A DNA stretch of 64,000 nt from Promethearchaeota archaeon (GTDB lineage Archaea > Asgardarchaeota > Lokiarchaeia > Sigyniarchaeales > SOKP01), in assembly GCA_030603385.1 (NCBI GenBank), contig JAUVXW010000001.1:192001-256000 (forward strand), given 5' to 3'. Positions within the stretch are counted from its first letter, which is position 1. Every line of letters begins with the position of its first letter. The notes beneath the pieces were generated by a model. The model had not been told where the DNA came from. It did no database searches and was given only the letters and a program-made list of their open reading frames with translations. Below are positions 27,886 to 61,646 of the stretch, piece by piece. Position numbers and translations under genes: made by a program.

Positions 27886-30873
27886 ATGAGCTATACGTTC
27901 TCACGCACTAAAATGATAGAAAAAATCAAGTTTGGTTTGCTTAGTCCAGATGAAATTCGTAAGATGTCTGCTGCCCGAATTATTACGGCTGACACTTATG
28001 ATGAGGACGGACTCTGAATTTTATTTCGGAATTCAGACGTAATTCCCATCCCATCTGGCTTAATGGACCAACGGCTCGGAACGATTGAGCCTGGTCAAAG
28101 ATGTCAGACATGTGGTAATTTAGTTTCAAATTGTATGGGTCATTTTGGCCATATAGAATTAGCACGTCCCGTTATTCATGTAGGATACTCAAAGAAAGTT
28201 TTAAAAGTGTTACGCAGTATCTGTCCGGATTGCTCTCGTTTAATGCTAACTGAAGAGGAAAAAGAGGAATTCAGACAAGAGCAAATAAAACATAGAAAGA
28301 TTTTTTTCGAGGGGGATGAAGAAGCTTCGAAACTCGTATTTAAACGTGCCAGAAAAGCTAAAAATTGTCCTTATTGCGGTACTAAGAAGAAAAAAATTAT
28401 TATTGAGAAACCTACCACATTTTATGAAGAAGAAGAAGGAAAAGGTTCCCGCAGAATAACACCTATAGAGATTCTAGAACGTCTTAAGAAGATGAGTGAT
28501 GTTGATCTTAGAATCTTAGGTATTTCCCCTGAAAATGCTAGACTTGAGTGGGTAATTTTTACCGTGCTCCCTATCCCCCCTGTATGTGCAAGACCATCAA
28601 TTACTTTAGATAGTGGTATCCGTTCTGAAGATGATCTAACACATAAATTAGTAGATGTTATACGAATTAATCAAAGATTAAGAGAAAATATTGATGCAGG
28701 AGCACCTCATTTAATTGTAGAAGATCTTTGGGAATTATTACAATATCATATTACCACATATTTTGATAATCAAGTTTCTGGGATACCACCTGCAAGACAT
28801 CGTTCTGGAAGAGCCCTTAGAACCCTAACTCAAAGATTAAAAGGTAAAGAGGGTAGATTTAGAAGTAATTTAAGTGGCAAAAGAGTGGATTTTTCTGCGA
28901 GAAGTGTAATTTCGCCTAATCCATATATAAGTATAAATGAAGTAGGTGTACCTATAGAGATAGCGAAAATTTTAACTATCCCCACTAATGTTAATGATTG
29001 GAATATTGAAGAAATGAAACAAATGGTCCTAAATGGACCTGTTCATCATCCTGGAGCTAATTACATCATACGGAGTGATCGTAGAAGAATTGACCTACGT
29101 TATGTTAAAAATAGAAAAATTATTGCAGATATGTTAGCACCAGGATTCACTGTTGAGCGTCATTTGGATGATGGAGACTTAGTATTATTTAATCGTCAAC
29201 CATCGCTCCATAGAATGTCGATAATGGCACATGAAGTAAAAATCATGGAAGGGCGAACTTTTAGATTAAATTTAACTGTATGCCCTCCTTATAACGCTGA
29301 TTTCGATGGAGATGAAATGAATTTACATGTACCTCAAAGTGAAGAGGCTCGAACAGAAGCAGAATTGCTTCTTAAAGTACAAAACCACATATTGTCACCC
29401 CGTTTTGGAGGTCCAATTTTAGGAGGAATTCAAGATTTTATTTCAAGTGTTTTTCAATTTACGAGTAAAAACTCTCTATACAATAAAAAAGAGGCATTAA
29501 ACTTATTTTATATTGGAGGGATATTTGAAGATAAACCTGATTTTAGTTTAGAACAATTAACTCCTATAACAACTGATCCAGAACCTTTATATTCTGGTAA
29601 AGATATATTCAGTAGCTTATTTCCTGATGATTTAAACTTAAAAGTTAAATCAAAATTTTGTAAAAAATGTGACGTATGTGAAGAAGAAAACTGCGCTTAT
29701 GATGCTTATGTTGTAATTAAAAATGGAAGGCTAATAACTGGAACAATAGATGAAAATTCCTTCGGTGCTATGCAACCAAATAGTATCTTGGCGCGAATTA
29801 TTAAGGATCATGGAAATGCGCGTGGTAGACAGTTTTTAGATAGCGCTACTAAACTGTTGCTGGGCGTTATTCGGAAAAATGGTATGACAATGGGATTGGA
29901 TGAGGTTTATGTACATGGTCATGCATATGATGTAATTGAAAAAATATTAAAGGACGGAAATGAAGAGTCTAACAAACTAATAAAAGCCTTTCGTGAAAAT
30001 GATACTACTATTCTTAAAAGAGCACCTGGCCGTTCTATGAGAGAAACTTTGGAATTGAGAATACGCGGGGCATTGGCAGAGGCCCAAAAAGAAGCAATAG
30101 AATCAGCAGCTGATTTCATAGGAGATGAAGCACACTCAGTTATTATGACTAAATCTGGAGCAAGAGGAAATTTATTAAACTTAGGAATGATGTCTGCTGT
30201 TGTGGGACAACAAGCTATAAGAGGTGAAAGAATTAACAGAGGTTATGTAGGGAGTAGGAGAACATTACCTCATTTTAAAGTTGACGACCTTTCACCAAAA
30301 TCTAGAGGTTTTGTATCTTCATCTTATCGAAATGGGTTAAAACCTGTAGAATTCTTCTTTCATGCAATGGGTGGGAGAGAAGGACTCGTTGATACAGCAG
30401 TAAGAACATCTCAGAGTGGATATATGCAGAGAAGATTAGTAAATGCATTACAAGATATGGTTGTAGAAAATGACGGAACTGTTAGAAATTCTGACAAGAA
30501 CATAATTCAGTTTAAATTTGGCGACGATGGTATAGATGCAATGCATACTGATCATGGTTCAGCAGTAAATTTGGATGTGTTATTATTAAAAGCAAAAGCT
30601 CTTGATGTAGGAGAGATTCGTGAAGAAATTAAGCAAGAATCTATCTCTCGAAAAGCTACTTCTAAAGCAAAAAAAGCTATTGATGTGAAACCTAAGGAAA
30701 AGGCTCCTCCAAAAGAAAAGCCCAAAAAAGAAATAAAACCTAAAAAAAAAGAAAAGGTTCATGATGAAGATACATCGATAAAGCAATTTGAAGACGAAAC
30801 TGGAAAGAAGGCTATTTGGAGAGGGAAAGAAACAAAAGCTTATATAGATTGGAAGCAAGAAAAATTAGGATAA
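27886..30873 (+). CDS. rpo1N: RNA polymerase subunit A' (Rpo1N), two exons (27886-28012 + 28043-30873), about 985 aa spliced
   Basis: Exon 1 encodes [42 protein letters not shown]; exon 2 [12 protein letters not shown]..., [28 protein letters not shown]. Confidence 0.95.
28013..28042 (+). other. Predicted 30-nt BHB intron in rpoA' mRNA
   Basis: In-frame TGA 28015-17 inside hairpin CUGAAUU/AAUUCAG; central helix ACGG/ACGU (3 of 4 bp), bulges ACU and AAU; excision gives DEDG-L-PIP. Confidence 0.8.
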
Positions 30874-59609: not shown

Positions 59610-61646
59610 ATGATTATGGACTTTCAATTACAAACTGATTTTGAACCTGCTGGTGATCAACCCTTAGCTATTCAAACTCTAACCAAGAATATTAAAAATG
59701 GTAAAAGGTTTCAAACCTTATTAGGTGCCACTGGGACAGGAAAAACTTTTACAATTGCTCAAATAATACAAGAAGTTCAGAAACCAACATTAGTAATGTC
59801 TCCTAATAAAACATTATGTGCTCAATTGTATAATGAGTTTAAAGAACTCTTTCCTGAAAATGCCGTTCACTACTTCGTTTCTTACTATGATTATTATCAG
59901 CCAGAAAGAATATTTCATTAAGAAATATCTCTGGAAGCATATATGCCTGTTTCAGGGATGTTTATAGAAAAAGACTTCAGTGTGAACGAAGAAATAGAAA
60001 GATTACGATTGGCTGCCACTCACGCTATCAGAACAAGAAAAGATGTTATAATAGTTGCTTCTGTTTCTTGTCTTTATGGAATTGGGAACCCGGAGGTTTG
60101 GACAGCAGTTTCTCTCAGTTTAGAAACAGGGCAAGCTATTAACCGAGGGGAAATGTTGAAAAGACTTATTAGTATTAATTATGAAAGAAATAATATCGAT
60201 TTTAAACCAGGTATAGTAAGGGTAAGAGGAGACATTATAGATATTTGGCCAGCATATTTAATTAATGCTATACGAATTTCACTTTTTGGGGATGAGATTG
60301 AATCAATTCAAGAGATACATCCAATTTCAAGTGAAGTATTAAATGATTTACCTAATTGCCGAATTTTCCCTGCTACTCATTTTATAATTCCAGAAGAGAA
60401 TAAAGTTAAAGCTCTTGAATCAATAAAGATTGAATTGAAAGATCAACTTGATAAATTTAGGAAAGCGAAAAAGTATGCCGAGGCACAGCTATTAGAAAGA
60501 CGCATTAAATTTGATCTGGAAATGTTAAGAGAAATGGGTTGGTGTAAAGGTATAGAAAATTATTCTAGGCATTTAGATAGAAGAGCTCCTGGTTCTCCTC
60601 CCATGACATTAATCGACTACTTCCCAGAAGATTTTCTTATTGTAGTTGATGAATCTCATGTTTCAATTCCTCAAATTCACGGGCAAATAGGTGGAGATAG
60701 ATCTCGTAAAAAAAATCTTGTGGATTATGGTTGGCGTTTACCAAGTGCCTATGATAATAGGCCCCTTACTTTTGATGAATGGGAAGATAAAATTAAATAC
60801 TCAATCTTCATGAGTGCTACACCCGGAGATTATGAATTAAAGAAAAGCGGGGAAATTTCAGCAGAACAAATAATTAGACCTACTGGTCTCGTAGATCCTC
60901 AAGTTGAGGTAAGACCTGCGAAGAATCAAATTGATGATTTGTTAGGAGAAATTAGAAAAGTCGTAGACAATAATGGTAGAGTTTTAGTTACTACACTTAC
61001 AAAGAGAATGGCTGAAGATATTGCGGATTATTATTCCGAGTTGGGGGTTAAGATAGAGTATTTACACTCAGAGGTAGATACTGTAGAAAGATTTGAGATT
61101 TTAAGGCAATTAAGATATGGAACTCATGATGTCATAGTTGGGATAAATCTATTGAGAGAGGGATTAGATCTACCTGAAGTTAAATTAGTTGCGATTTTAG
61201 ATGCTGATAAACTTGGATTTCTACGCGATAAAAGGTCTTTAATTCAAACAATTGGAAGAGCTTCTAGAAACGTAGAAGGGAGAGCAATTTTATATGGGGA
61301 TAGAATGTCTGAAGCGATGAAAACGGCAATAGACGAGACCAATAGGAGGAGGAATATACAGATTGCGTACAATGAGAAAAATAATATTACACCCCAAACA
61401 ATTAAGAAAAATATTTTAAAATCTTTATCTGAGGAAAAAGAATATAAAGAAAGAGAAGTGAAAAGATTAAAGCAAAGCGTTAAAGCGAAAATAGAAAGAT
61501 TACAAGAGGAAGGGGATATTGAGATTGTGATTGAATATCTTGAAAATAAGATGTATATGGCTGCTAAGGAACTTCGATTTGAAGACGCAGCATATTTGCG
61601 TGATAAAATTAAGGAGATAAAAAAGGCTTATAAAAAAACATCATGA
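59610..61646 (+). CDS. uvrB: Excinuclease ABC subunit B, two exons (59610-59906 + 59937-61646), about 668 aa spliced
   Basis: [26 protein letters not shown]|[27 protein letters not shown]-terminal UVR domain; both ORFs are in one frame. Confidence 0.95.
59907..59936 (+). other. Predicted 30-nt BHB intron in uvrB mRNA
   Basis: Central helix CCAG/CUGG (4 of 4 bp), bulges AAA and AAG, inner stem GAAUAUUUC/GAAAUAUCU with TAA in the loop; excision gives QPE-AY. Confidence 0.88.

What the first reader, a model, noticed from the sequence alone, without database searches (positions are those of the whole stretch)
59895..59945. Near-canonical BHB intron splitting the Uvr[11 protein letters not shown] damage-recognition motif
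The sequence reads [21 protein letters not shown], so the near-invariant motif at the base of the UvrB beta-hairpin is split by 30 nt. The central helix CCAG/CUGG is perfect, the bulges are AAA and AAG, and the stop sits in the loop AUUAA. Cleavage after the second bulge nucleotide gives CCAGAA|GCATAT = P-E-A-Y exactly. The outer exon-exon helix is weak (a G-C pair). Inference: splicing may gate a DNA-repair gene.
Basis: partly seen in the sequence, partly recalled or inferred. Interest (0 to 1): 0.88.

Follow-up and report, generated by a model that had tools for sequence, protein, structure and literature searches.

The report
Spliced mini-intron inside archaeal uvrB gene
The DNA-repair gene uvrB of an Asgard (Promethearchaeia/Lokiarchaeia-type) archaeon is interrupted by a 30-base tRNA-style (bulge-helix-bulge) intron, kept in eight related species, which extends a type of archaeal messenger-RNA intron so far described only for the cbf5 gene.

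Summary
Observation confirmed. uvrB (window 59610-61646, +) carries 30 extra bases (59907-59936), including an in-frame TAA, exactly between ...YYDYYQPE and AYMP.

- central helix CCAG/CUGG
- bulges AAA and AAG
- an intron hairpin
- almost no outer exon-exon helix, so this is the relaxed HBh' form

Cutting after the second base of each bulge restores PEAY.

Evidence from related genomes:
- Eight of 47 species of the genus carry a 29-, 30- or 32-base insert at the same codon junction, in three unrelated sequence types.
- All eight keep the helix and bulges, with compensatory changes.
- All eight regain an open UvrB frame only by the same cutting rule.
- dN/dS is 0.05-0.12.

In the same genome, uvrA, uvrC, the RNA ligase RtcB and two EndA (splicing endonuclease) paralogues are intact. 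Similar ~30-base introns sit in rpoA1, rnhB and a phosphorylase gene, so constitutive splicing is more likely than damage-dependent gating.

No RNA data could be obtained, so splicing is inferred. My paper searches found pre-mRNA BHB introns only for crenarchaeal cbf5. First-stage notes on this genome list similar candidates; I checked two of them.

The parts
59610..59906 (+). uvrB exon 1 (99 codons, ends ...YYDYYQPE)
   Evidence: ORF list. Alignment to solved UvrB structures.
59901..59904 (+). 5' strand of the central 4-bp helix H (CCAG). It is exonic: the Pro codon plus the first base of the Glu codon.
   Evidence: Sequence. It pairs with 59931-59934. The third pair covaries, A-U in 5 species and G-C in 3.
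59905..59907 (+). 5' bulge AAA. The predicted cut lies between 59906 and 59907.
   Evidence: Sequence. Cutting between the second and third bulge base is the rule stated in PMC2738675.
59907..59936 (+). 30-nt BHB intron
   Evidence: It is an insertion relative to all solved UvrB structures and to about 39 genus members without it.
59908..59930 (+). Intron hairpin h': arms GAAUAUUUC and GAAAUAUCU, loop AUUAA at 59917-59921 containing the in-frame stop TAA at 59919-59921.
   Evidence: Folds. Five of the six counted inner pairs show changes on both sides among species.
59931..59934 (+). 3' strand of the central helix H (CUGG), intronic
59935..59937 (+). 3' bulge AAG. The predicted cut lies between 59936 and 59937.
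   Evidence: Sequence. The same geometry is seen in all 8 species, with bulges AAG, AGG or ACG.
59937..61646 (+). uvrB exon 2 (569 codons plus stop, starts AYMPVSG...)
   Evidence: ORF list. PDB alignment.

Best explanation
The 30 nt at 59907-59936 are an archaeal bulge-helix-bulge intron of the relaxed HBh' type inside the uvrB pre-mRNA of a Promethearchaeia (Asgard) archaeon.

Proposed mechanism:
1. In the transcript, the last exon-1 bases CCAG pair with CUGG at the 3' end of the intron. The rest of the intron forms a hairpin, and two 3-nt bulges (AAA, AAG) flank the 4-bp helix on opposite strands.
2. The tRNA-splicing endonuclease EndA cuts after the second base of each bulge. Here it is probably an (alpha-beta)2 enzyme made of the two paralogues in the genome.
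3. RtcB joins CCAGAA to GCAUAU.
4. The mature mRNA encodes an uninterrupted 668-aa UvrB with the [10 protein letters not shown] motif. Unspliced mRNA would give a 103-aa fragment that ends at the TAA in the hairpin loop.

Splicing is most likely constitutive, and the intron a tolerated neutral or selfish insert. It is one of several ~30-nt introns in protein-coding genes of this genome.

What is shown and what is inferred:
- Shown: the structure, its conservation and covariation, restoration of the frame, purifying selection, and presence of the enzymes.
- Inferred: cleavage and ligation in vivo, the subunit composition of EndA, and constitutive rather than regulated splicing.
For: 1. The anatomy is as described and in the right register. 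The chance rate of such a motif in a fixed register is 1.5e-4.

2. Eight of 47 genus members with a uvrB match carry an insert at the identical codon junction: G000, G019, G060, G002, G008, G021, G046 and G011. The lengths are 30, 30, 30, 29, 32, 32, 32 and 32 nt, in three unrelated hairpin sequences. One JGI metagenome contig carries it too.

3. In all eight, the rule 'cut after bulge base 2' gives CC[AG]GAA|GC[N]TA[YC] = PEAY. The remaining ~590 codons held in each locus are then open. The 29- and 32-nt inserts shift the frame if they are not removed.

4. The named structure is kept. Of all cells, 84.8% are paired, against 25-56% when the partner columns are slid. Six of 10 pairs change on both sides, including A-U to G-C in the central helix, where an exonic synonymous CCA-to-CCG change is matched by an intronic U-to-C change. 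The minimum-energy fold of the G008 version is exactly 4 bp plus a 3-nt bulge plus a hairpin.

5. dN/dS among intron-bearing genes is 0.05-0.12, the same as against intron-free relatives, with dS up to more than 1.

6. The genome has intact uvrA (1325.6 bits), uvrC (558.6 bits) and RtcB (558.2 bits), plus two EndA paralogues. The 198-aa one is closest to the chains 3p1z_B and 3ajv_B, which I recall (not checked here) to be the catalytic subunit of the Aeropyrum pernix heterotetramer. By my reading of its sequence, the 200-aa one lacks the catalytic His. Asgard archaea are reported to have (alpha-beta)2 EndA with the L1 loop that confers broad specificity (PMC5829648).

7. The same kind of ~30-nt intron restores conserved motifs in three other genes of this genome:
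- rpoA1: YDEDG|LPI, window 28013-28042
- rnhB: GIDEAG|RGP
- a glycosyltransferase-family-3 phosphorylase gene
Against: - There is no RNA evidence.
- The outer exon-exon helix is essentially absent (one G-C pair in the own sequence, none in G008). The motif is therefore not the canonical hBHBh', and it depends on an endonuclease that accepts relaxed substrates.
- The A/U-rich inner helix is weak. The fold z-score is only -1.4 to -1.9 for the own sequence, and its minimum-energy fold prefers a 5-bp helix with a 2-nt bulge. In G060 and G002 the 5' bulge can be absorbed into a longer helix.
- My genome-wide motif scans showed no excess of frame-joining BHB candidates over wrong-phase controls. The claim that this is one of several rests on individually verified genes, not on a statistical census.
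Confidence: 0.88

Rival explanations
1. Programmed translational bypass (ribosome hopping, as in phage T4 gene 60 or yeast mitochondrial byp elements). The ribosome takes off at GAA (Glu), skips the hairpin and lands 30 nt downstream, so no RNA is cut.
For: In the own sequence the take-off codon GAA is matched by a GAA just before exon 2 (CUG GAA GCA). The gap holds a hairpin and a stop. Bypass does not need a gap length that is a multiple of three.
Against: The triplet before exon 2 is GAA in only 4 of the 8 species. It is GAG in G008, AAA in G021, AAG in G046 and GAC in G011, so the take-off and landing match that defines bypassing is not conserved. What is conserved is the 4-bp helix and the two 3-nt bulges, which bypass does not require. 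In T4 gene 60, as I recall, a stop codon directly follows the take-off codon; here none does. Other introns in the genome have unrelated junction codons but the same BHB geometry.
Confidence: 0.03
2. The gene is disrupted, and either is a pseudogene or is expressed as two separate polypeptides: a 103-aa N-fragment and a 567-aa C-fragment starting at the ATG of AYMP.
For: Standard ORF calling gives two ORFs. An ATG (59943) lies two codons after the junction, and that ATG is kept in all eight species.
Against: dN/dS is 0.05-0.12 across both parts, with saturated dS. There is no other frame disruption in ~590 codons in any of 8 species. The break sits inside the most conserved motif. The inserts keep an RNA structure through compensatory changes, which a dead insertion or a simple split would not do. 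That ATG is equally present in intron-free relatives (AYMP), so it is not a feature evolved for a split.
Confidence: 0.04
3. A real BHB intron whose splicing is regulated, for example by DNA damage, so that it gates UvrB production. This is the first reader's inference, and it is a sub-hypothesis of the best explanation.
For: The stop codon in the loop means that unspliced mRNA gives no UvrB. The relaxed, weakly folding motif could make splicing inefficient and therefore tunable. Regulated endonuclease/RtcB-type mRNA splicing exists elsewhere (HAC1/XBP1, from my own knowledge).
Against: Introns of the same size and shape sit in constitutively needed genes such as rpoA1 and rnhB. Thirty-nine of the 47 genus members with a uvrB match, including the sister species G048, have no intron at this site. 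No sensor element is visible in the 30 nt. There are no expression data.
Confidence: 0.08
4. An artefact of assembly or sequencing, or a recoded stop (TAA read as an amino acid) giving a 10-residue insertion in the protein.
For: The own insert is in frame (30 nt) and contains a single stop.
Against: The insert is present in independent assemblies of 8 species and in one metagenome contig. The 29- and 32-nt versions are out of frame, so read-through cannot rescue them. Ten extra residues would sit inside the conserved [10 protein letters not shown] motif.
Confidence: 0.01

Closest known systems
BHB introns in the cbf5 pre-mRNA of Crenarchaeota (Watanabe 2002; Yoshinari 2006; Yokobori 2009, PMC2738675)
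   Same: Both are short introns in a protein-coding gene with a mostly relaxed BHB motif. Both are cut between the second and third bulge bases by a hetero-oligomeric splicing endonuclease. Both show gain and loss among close relatives, and both are too short to encode anything.
   Different: The host gene is uvrB, not cbf5. The phylum is Asgard/Promethearchaeota, not Crenarchaeota. The same site appears to have been occupied at least twice. The same genome has further introns of this kind in other genes, whereas every archaeal pre-mRNA intron I found in the papers read here is in cbf5. Splicing is not shown experimentally here.
Non-canonical tRNA introns of Asgard archaea and Thermoproteales (PMC11291895; bioRxiv 10.64898/2026.10.13.758758; PMC5829648)
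   Same: Same motif, and the same presumed enzymes: (alpha-beta)2 EndA with the L1 loop, plus RtcB. Gains and losses are frequent.
   Different: The substrate is an mRNA, so the exon half of the motif is built from codons (CCN GAA / GCN). There is no tRNA body to help recognition.
Unconventional HAC1/XBP1 mRNA splicing (Ire1 endonuclease plus a tRNA ligase; RtcB in metazoans)
   Same: Both are spliceosome-independent removal of a short intron from an mRNA, by a protein endonuclease that cuts at two stem-loop-defined sites, followed by a tRNA-type ligase. Removal changes the reading frame or product.
   Different: The endonuclease (Ire1) and the recognition motif differ. HAC1/XBP1 splicing is stress-regulated, and no regulation is indicated here. 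This comparison rests on my own knowledge.
Translational bypass elements (T4 gene 60; Magnusiomyces mitochondrial byps)
   Same: Both are a short non-coding gap with a hairpin and a stop inside an otherwise intact ORF.
   Different: Bypass needs matched take-off and landing codons. That match is not conserved here in 4 of 8 species, while the BHB geometry is conserved.

Membership tests
Archaeal bulge-helix-bulge (BHB) intron | 4-bp central helix formed by the end of the 5' exon and the 3' end of the intron | tested here: met
   CCAG (59901-04) pairs with CUGG (59931-34). In the 8 species 93.8% of cells are paired, with an A-U to G-C compensatory change at pair 3. G021 and G046 have a terminal C-A mismatch.
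Archaeal bulge-helix-bulge (BHB) intron | Two 3-nt bulges on opposite strands flanking the central helix | tested here: met
   The 5' bulge is AAA or AAU and the 3' bulge is AAG, AGG or ACG in all 8 species. The minimum-energy fold of the G008 version gives exactly this. The own sequence can also form a 5-bp helix with a 2-nt bulge.
Archaeal bulge-helix-bulge (BHB) intron | Inner (intronic) helix h' stacked on the central helix | tested here: met
   The hairpin is 59908-59930. In the six basal pairs 78.7% of cells are paired, and 5 of the 6 pairs change on both sides among species.
Canonical hBHBh' form of the BHB motif | Outer exon-exon helix h closing the 3' bulge | tested here: not met
   There is only one G-C pair in the own sequence and none in G008/G021/G046 (A opposite C). 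No conserved pairing exists. The motif is therefore the relaxed HBh' form.
Archaeal bulge-helix-bulge (BHB) intron | Cutting between bulge bases 2 and 3 at both sites gives a functional joined product | tested here: met
   It gives PEAY and an open UvrB frame in all 8 species, including the 29- and 32-nt inserts. The joined protein aligns without a gap to solved UvrB structures. The cutting rule is taken from PMC2738675.
Archaeal bulge-helix-bulge (BHB) intron | The host encodes a splicing endonuclease able to cut relaxed motifs, and an RNA ligase | tested here: met
   There are two PF01974 genes (99.2 and 71 bits). One is closest to chains 3p1z_B and 3ajv_B, which I recall to be the Aeropyrum pernix heterotetramer catalytic subunit; the other lacks the His by my reading. 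RtcB scores 558 bits. The heterotetramer architecture and the L1 loop are taken from PMC5829648 and were not verified on these proteins.
Archaeal bulge-helix-bulge (BHB) intron | Spliced RNA (exon junction or excised, possibly circular, intron) observed | not testable with these tools
Programmed translational bypass element | Matched take-off and landing codons flanking the gap | tested here: not met
   The take-off codon is GAA in all species. The landing triplet is GAA in 4, and GAG, AAA, AAG or GAC in the other 4.
UvrB (excinuclease ABC subunit B) | Full-length similarity including the [10 protein letters not shown] motif | tested here: met
   The best match is 9gy7_E at 788.6 bits, over residues 4-673. 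The only gap at the motif is the 10-codon insert.

The most novel reading that the evidence does not exclude
The uvrB intron is one visible product of an ongoing process in Promethearchaeia that seeds ~30-nt endonuclease-spliced introns into protein-coding genes, essential ones such as rpoA1 included. Under this reading there are repeated independent gains (twice at the same uvrB codon junction) and precise losses. Close prokaryotic relatives of eukaryotes would then already tolerate and turn over mRNA introns using the tRNA-splicing machinery.
Probability: 0.45. Interest if true: 0.9.

Novelty: new member of a known kind. Interest (0 to 1): 0.74.

Why it matters
[quoted passage not shown] My six paper searches on BHB, intron, mRNA, Asgard and uvrB terms found no description of BHB introns in Asgard mRNAs.

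A conserved intron that shows covariation in uvrB, together with the same kind of intron in rpoA1, rnhB and a phosphorylase gene of one genome, would mean two things:
- EndA/RtcB splicing of mRNAs is not a one-gene curiosity.
- It occurs in the archaeal lineage closest to eukaryotes, which bears on how cells came to tolerate interrupted protein genes.

There is also a practical consequence. Such genes are called as two ORFs or as pseudogenes by standard annotation, so repair and core-machinery genes of Asgard genomes recovered from metagenomes may be wrongly scored as broken or absent.

Tried and rejected

2. **Genome-wide census of BHB introns that join two ORFs.** I ran five versions:
   - lenient and strict helix and hairpin rules
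   - GC-rich central helix
   - a codon-usage filter on both flanks
   - no start codon near exon 2

   Each was compared with controls in which the deleted length was changed by 1 or 2 nt. None showed an excess over the controls; for example 1588 against 1505-1624, and 92 against 100-105. Adjacent genes and long antisense ORFs swamp the signal, so the number of such introns could not be estimated. One hit (vapB/vapC, C43) was shown to be a false positive.

3. **The search for related loci with the N-terminal exon in genome contigs.** This returned only bacterial uvrB genes, because the patterns were universal.

4. **Metagenome pattern scan.** It gave 15 stretches, of which only one was a true uvrB intron (L230, the G019 type). 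The rest were chance matches.

5. **Mobile-element idea.** The intron has no relative in the genome within 6 substitutions, and shuffled versions behave the same. It is not a multi-copy sequence family.

6. **Rfam and ARAGORN.** No known RNA family or tRNA lies at or near the site.

7. **Other readings.** Read-through or recoding of the stop, an assembly artefact, a pseudogene and translational bypass were considered and rejected (see the rival explanations).

Full report
**What is in the sequence**

The window lies in a ~30% GC genome. Its closest relatives are deposited as Promethearchaeota/Promethearchaeia (Lokiarchaeia-type Asgard) genomes recovered from metagenomes.

Standard ORF calling splits uvrB into two ORFs:
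- a 103-aa ORF (59610-59921) ending ...[12 protein letters not shown]
- a 567-aa ORF (59943-61646) starting MPVSG...

Read in one frame, the DNA gives [21 protein letters not shown]. Aligned to solved UvrB structures (best match 9gy7_E, 788.6 bits), these ten codons are an insertion exactly between QPE and AY. The rest of the protein aligns from residue 4 to 673.

| Element | Window coordinates |
|---|---|
| Central helix, 5' strand CCAG | 59901-04 |
| 5' bulge AAA | 59905-07 |
| Intron hairpin | 59908-30 |
| Loop AUUAA, holding the stop TAA | 59917-21 |
| Central helix, 3' strand CUGG | 59931-34 |
| 3' bulge AAG | 59935-37 |

Only a single G-C pair is available for an outer exon-exon helix. 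Cutting after the second bulge base on each side removes 59907-59936 and joins CCAGAA to GCAUAU, giving P-E-A-Y.

Folding of the isolated RNA is unimpressive. The z-score is -1.4 to -1.9, and the minimum-energy fold prefers a 5-bp helix with a 2-nt bulge. In this genome, a 4-bp Watson-Crick helix plus at least 6 of 7 inner pairs in a fixed register occurs at 1.5e-4 per position and length. Here the position and length are fixed independently by protein homology.

**Comparative evidence**

I searched all 54 species genomes of the genus and 16 genomes of three other families of the order with the exon-1 protein. Eight of the 47 genus members with a uvrB match have an insert at exactly this codon junction.

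| Species | Insert length | Central helix | Bulges (5' / 3') |
|---|---|---|---|
| G000, G019, G060 | 30 nt | CCAG/CUGG | AAA / AAG |
| G002 | 29 nt | CCAG/CUGG | AAA / AAG |
| G008, G021, G046 | 32 nt | CCGG/CCGG, or CCGG/CCGA | AAU / AGG or AAG |
| G011 | 32 nt | CCAG/CUGG | AAU / ACG |

- The first two rows share one hairpin sequence. The third and fourth rows each have a hairpin unrelated to the others.
- One JGI metagenome contig carries the G019-type version.
- In every case the same rule (cut after bulge base 2) yields CC[AG]GAA|GCN TAY, which reads PEAY. After removal, all eight genes are open for the ~590 codons held in each locus.
- The 29- and 32-nt inserts destroy the frame if they are not removed. 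This rules out read-through or a tolerated peptide insertion.

I counted pairs for the named structure on the 8-sequence alignment:
- 84.8% of cells are paired, against 25-56% when the partner columns are slid by 1-3.
- Six of 10 pairs change on both sides.
- The third pair of the central helix switches from A-U to G-C. An exonic synonymous change (CCA to CCG) is matched by an intronic change (CUGG to CCGG).

With only three independent sequence types, these counts are supportive rather than a statistical proof.

**The gene is alive**

Pairwise dN/dS among intron-bearing genes is 0.05-0.12, with dS from 0.18 to above 1. Values against intron-free relatives are the same.

The genome also has:
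- an intact uvrA about 20 kb downstream on the same contig (1325.6 bits)
- an intact uvrC (558.6 bits)
- RtcB (558.2 bits)

**The machinery**

The genome has two EndA genes.
- The 198-aa product is closest to chains 3p1z_B/3ajv_B and 2cv8_A. I recall, without checking here, that these are the catalytic subunit of the Aeropyrum pernix heterotetramer and a Sulfolobus tokodaii EndA. By my reading of its sequence it keeps the Tyr/His/Lys positions.
- The 200-aa paralogue has no His at that place.

This fits the (alpha-beta)2 architecture with the L1 loop reported for Asgard archaea, which is the enzyme type that cuts relaxed HBh' motifs (PMC5829648). It also fits the two-paralogue pattern seen in 44 of 60 Asgard genomes (bioRxiv 10.64898/2026.10.13.758758). 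I did not verify the L1 loop on these proteins.

**History**

A maximum-likelihood tree of the spliced UvrB proteins gives the following picture.
- Seven intron-bearing species fall in one clade of eight (support 100/99). The eighth member, G048, is sister to the intron-bearing G060. It has a perfectly uninterrupted PEAY, which is a precise loss.
- G011 sits in a different, well-supported clade among intron-free species and has an unrelated intron sequence.
- Well-supported branches force at least three changes. The most parsimonious reading is two gains and one loss; a single gain would need about a dozen losses.
- This is a gene tree, so transfer of uvrB between species cannot be excluded.

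**Not a single-gene curiosity**

First-stage notes on this genome listed other candidate BHB introns. I tested some of them and found others in my own scan.
- **rpoA1**, in this window, has a 30-nt insert at 28013-28042 with a 6/7-bp outer helix. The insert lies exactly between YDEDG and PI relative to solved Rpo1N structures.
- **rnhB** (G000:C17, 30 nt) is split inside GIDEAG|RGP. The Pfam RNase_HII match to exon 2 starts at profile position 9.
- **A glycosyltransferase-family-3 phosphorylase gene** (C10, 30 nt) is split ten positions into its a/b domain.
- An AAA ATPase gene (C26, 32 nt) and a zinc-ribbon/LOR-domain gene (C55, 30 nt) are probable cases.

Both bulges start with A in uvrB, rpoA1, rnhB, the phosphorylase gene and the AAA gene, and all of these introns are 30-32 nt long.

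Such introns in constitutively needed genes, together with the precise loss in G048, argue that uvrB splicing is constitutive. Nothing supports damage-dependent gating.

**Rivals**

- **Translational bypass** would explain a hairpin-plus-stop gap of any length. It requires matched take-off and landing codons, and the landing triplet matches GAA in only 4 of 8 species.
- **A pseudogene or a two-polypeptide UvrB** is contradicted by the selection data and by conservation of the RNA structure.
- **An assembly artefact** is excluded by nine independent assemblies.

**Limits**

- No RNA data could be obtained, so cleavage and ligation are inferred.
- The motif lacks the outer helix and is weakly folded in its A/U-rich versions.
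- My genome-wide scans could not separate true introns from adjacent-gene and antisense-ORF background. The number of such introns in the genome is therefore unknown.

**Novelty**

My searches of the paper library found pre-mRNA BHB introns only for crenarchaeal cbf5 (PMC2738675). They found nothing on BHB introns in Asgard protein-coding genes or in uvrB.

Mechanistically this is a new member of a known kind. Its host lineage, its recurrence at one site and its companions in the same genome make it of real interest. Other first-stage notes of this scan flagged similar candidates on other DNA of this genome. They are unverified apart from the two I tested (rpoA1, and rnhB from the rnhB/psmA note).

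Noticed in passing
window 28000-28050 (intron 28013-28042, + strand): rpoA1 (RNA polymerase subunit A') carries a 30-nt BHB intron. It has an outer helix GAUGAGG/UCCCAUC, a central helix ACGG/ACGU (3 bp plus a G-A mismatch), bulges ACU and AAU, and a TGA in the insert. Removal gives YDEDG-L-PIPSG. The ten codons are an insertion relative to solved Rpo1N structures.
   Followed up: yes
L213:637-666 (+) = G000:C17:18136-18165: rnhB (RNase HII) is split inside GIDEAG|RGPVLGP by a 30-nt BHB intron (central helix UGGU/ACCA, bulges AGA and AAA). The Pfam RNase_HII match to exon 2 starts at profile position 9.
   Followed up: yes
L215:772-801 (+) = G000:C10:126771-126800: A glycosyltransferase-family-3 (nucleoside/AMP phosphorylase-like) gene is split by a 30-nt BHB intron (central helix CAGU/GCUG). 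Exon 1 holds Glycos_trans_3N. Exon 2 starts at position 11 of Glycos_transf_3.
   Followed up: yes
L214:767-798 (- strand) and L216:470-499 (+): Two probable further introns. One is 32 nt, just after the Walker B motif (LLIDEIDKAD|IEF) of an AAA ATPase gene. The other is 30 nt, in a zinc-ribbon/LOR-domain gene. Domain continuity across the junction is not proven for either.
   Followed up: partly
L235:800-2689 (- strand) = G004:C107; also G051:C14:27747-29630: In two other species of the genus, uvrB has a ~1.5-kb in-frame insertion near its N-terminus, between query residues ~31 and 53 (1200-aa open frame). In G004 this is an intein with a LAGLIDADG domain (Intein_splicing 77.6 bits, LAGLIDADG_3 70.2 bits). 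In this genus uvrB therefore hosts both protein-level and RNA-level intervening sequences. G051 was not checked.
   Followed up: partly
window 59937-59946: The first ten bases of exon 2, GCATATATGC (codons AYM+P), are a perfect palindrome that folds as a mini-hairpin directly after the 3' bulge. It is present in intron-free relatives too, so it follows from the codons. It might stand in for the missing outer helix. Not tested.
   Followed up: no
L217:148-821 = G000:C43:12347-13020: A vapB/vapC (antitoxin/PIN) gene pair was picked up by the BHB scan as a 38-nt 'intron'. Pfam shows two separate genes, so this is an example of the false positives that dominate motif-only scans.
   Followed up: yes
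whole genome G000: Open frames of 40 codons or more on non-coding (mostly antisense) frames are common in this ~30% GC genome. They were a main source of false ORF-joining candidates. Codon-usage scores separate coding from non-coding 40-codon windows only moderately (5th percentile of coding windows 3.19, 95th percentile of non-coding windows 3.25).
   Followed up: partly
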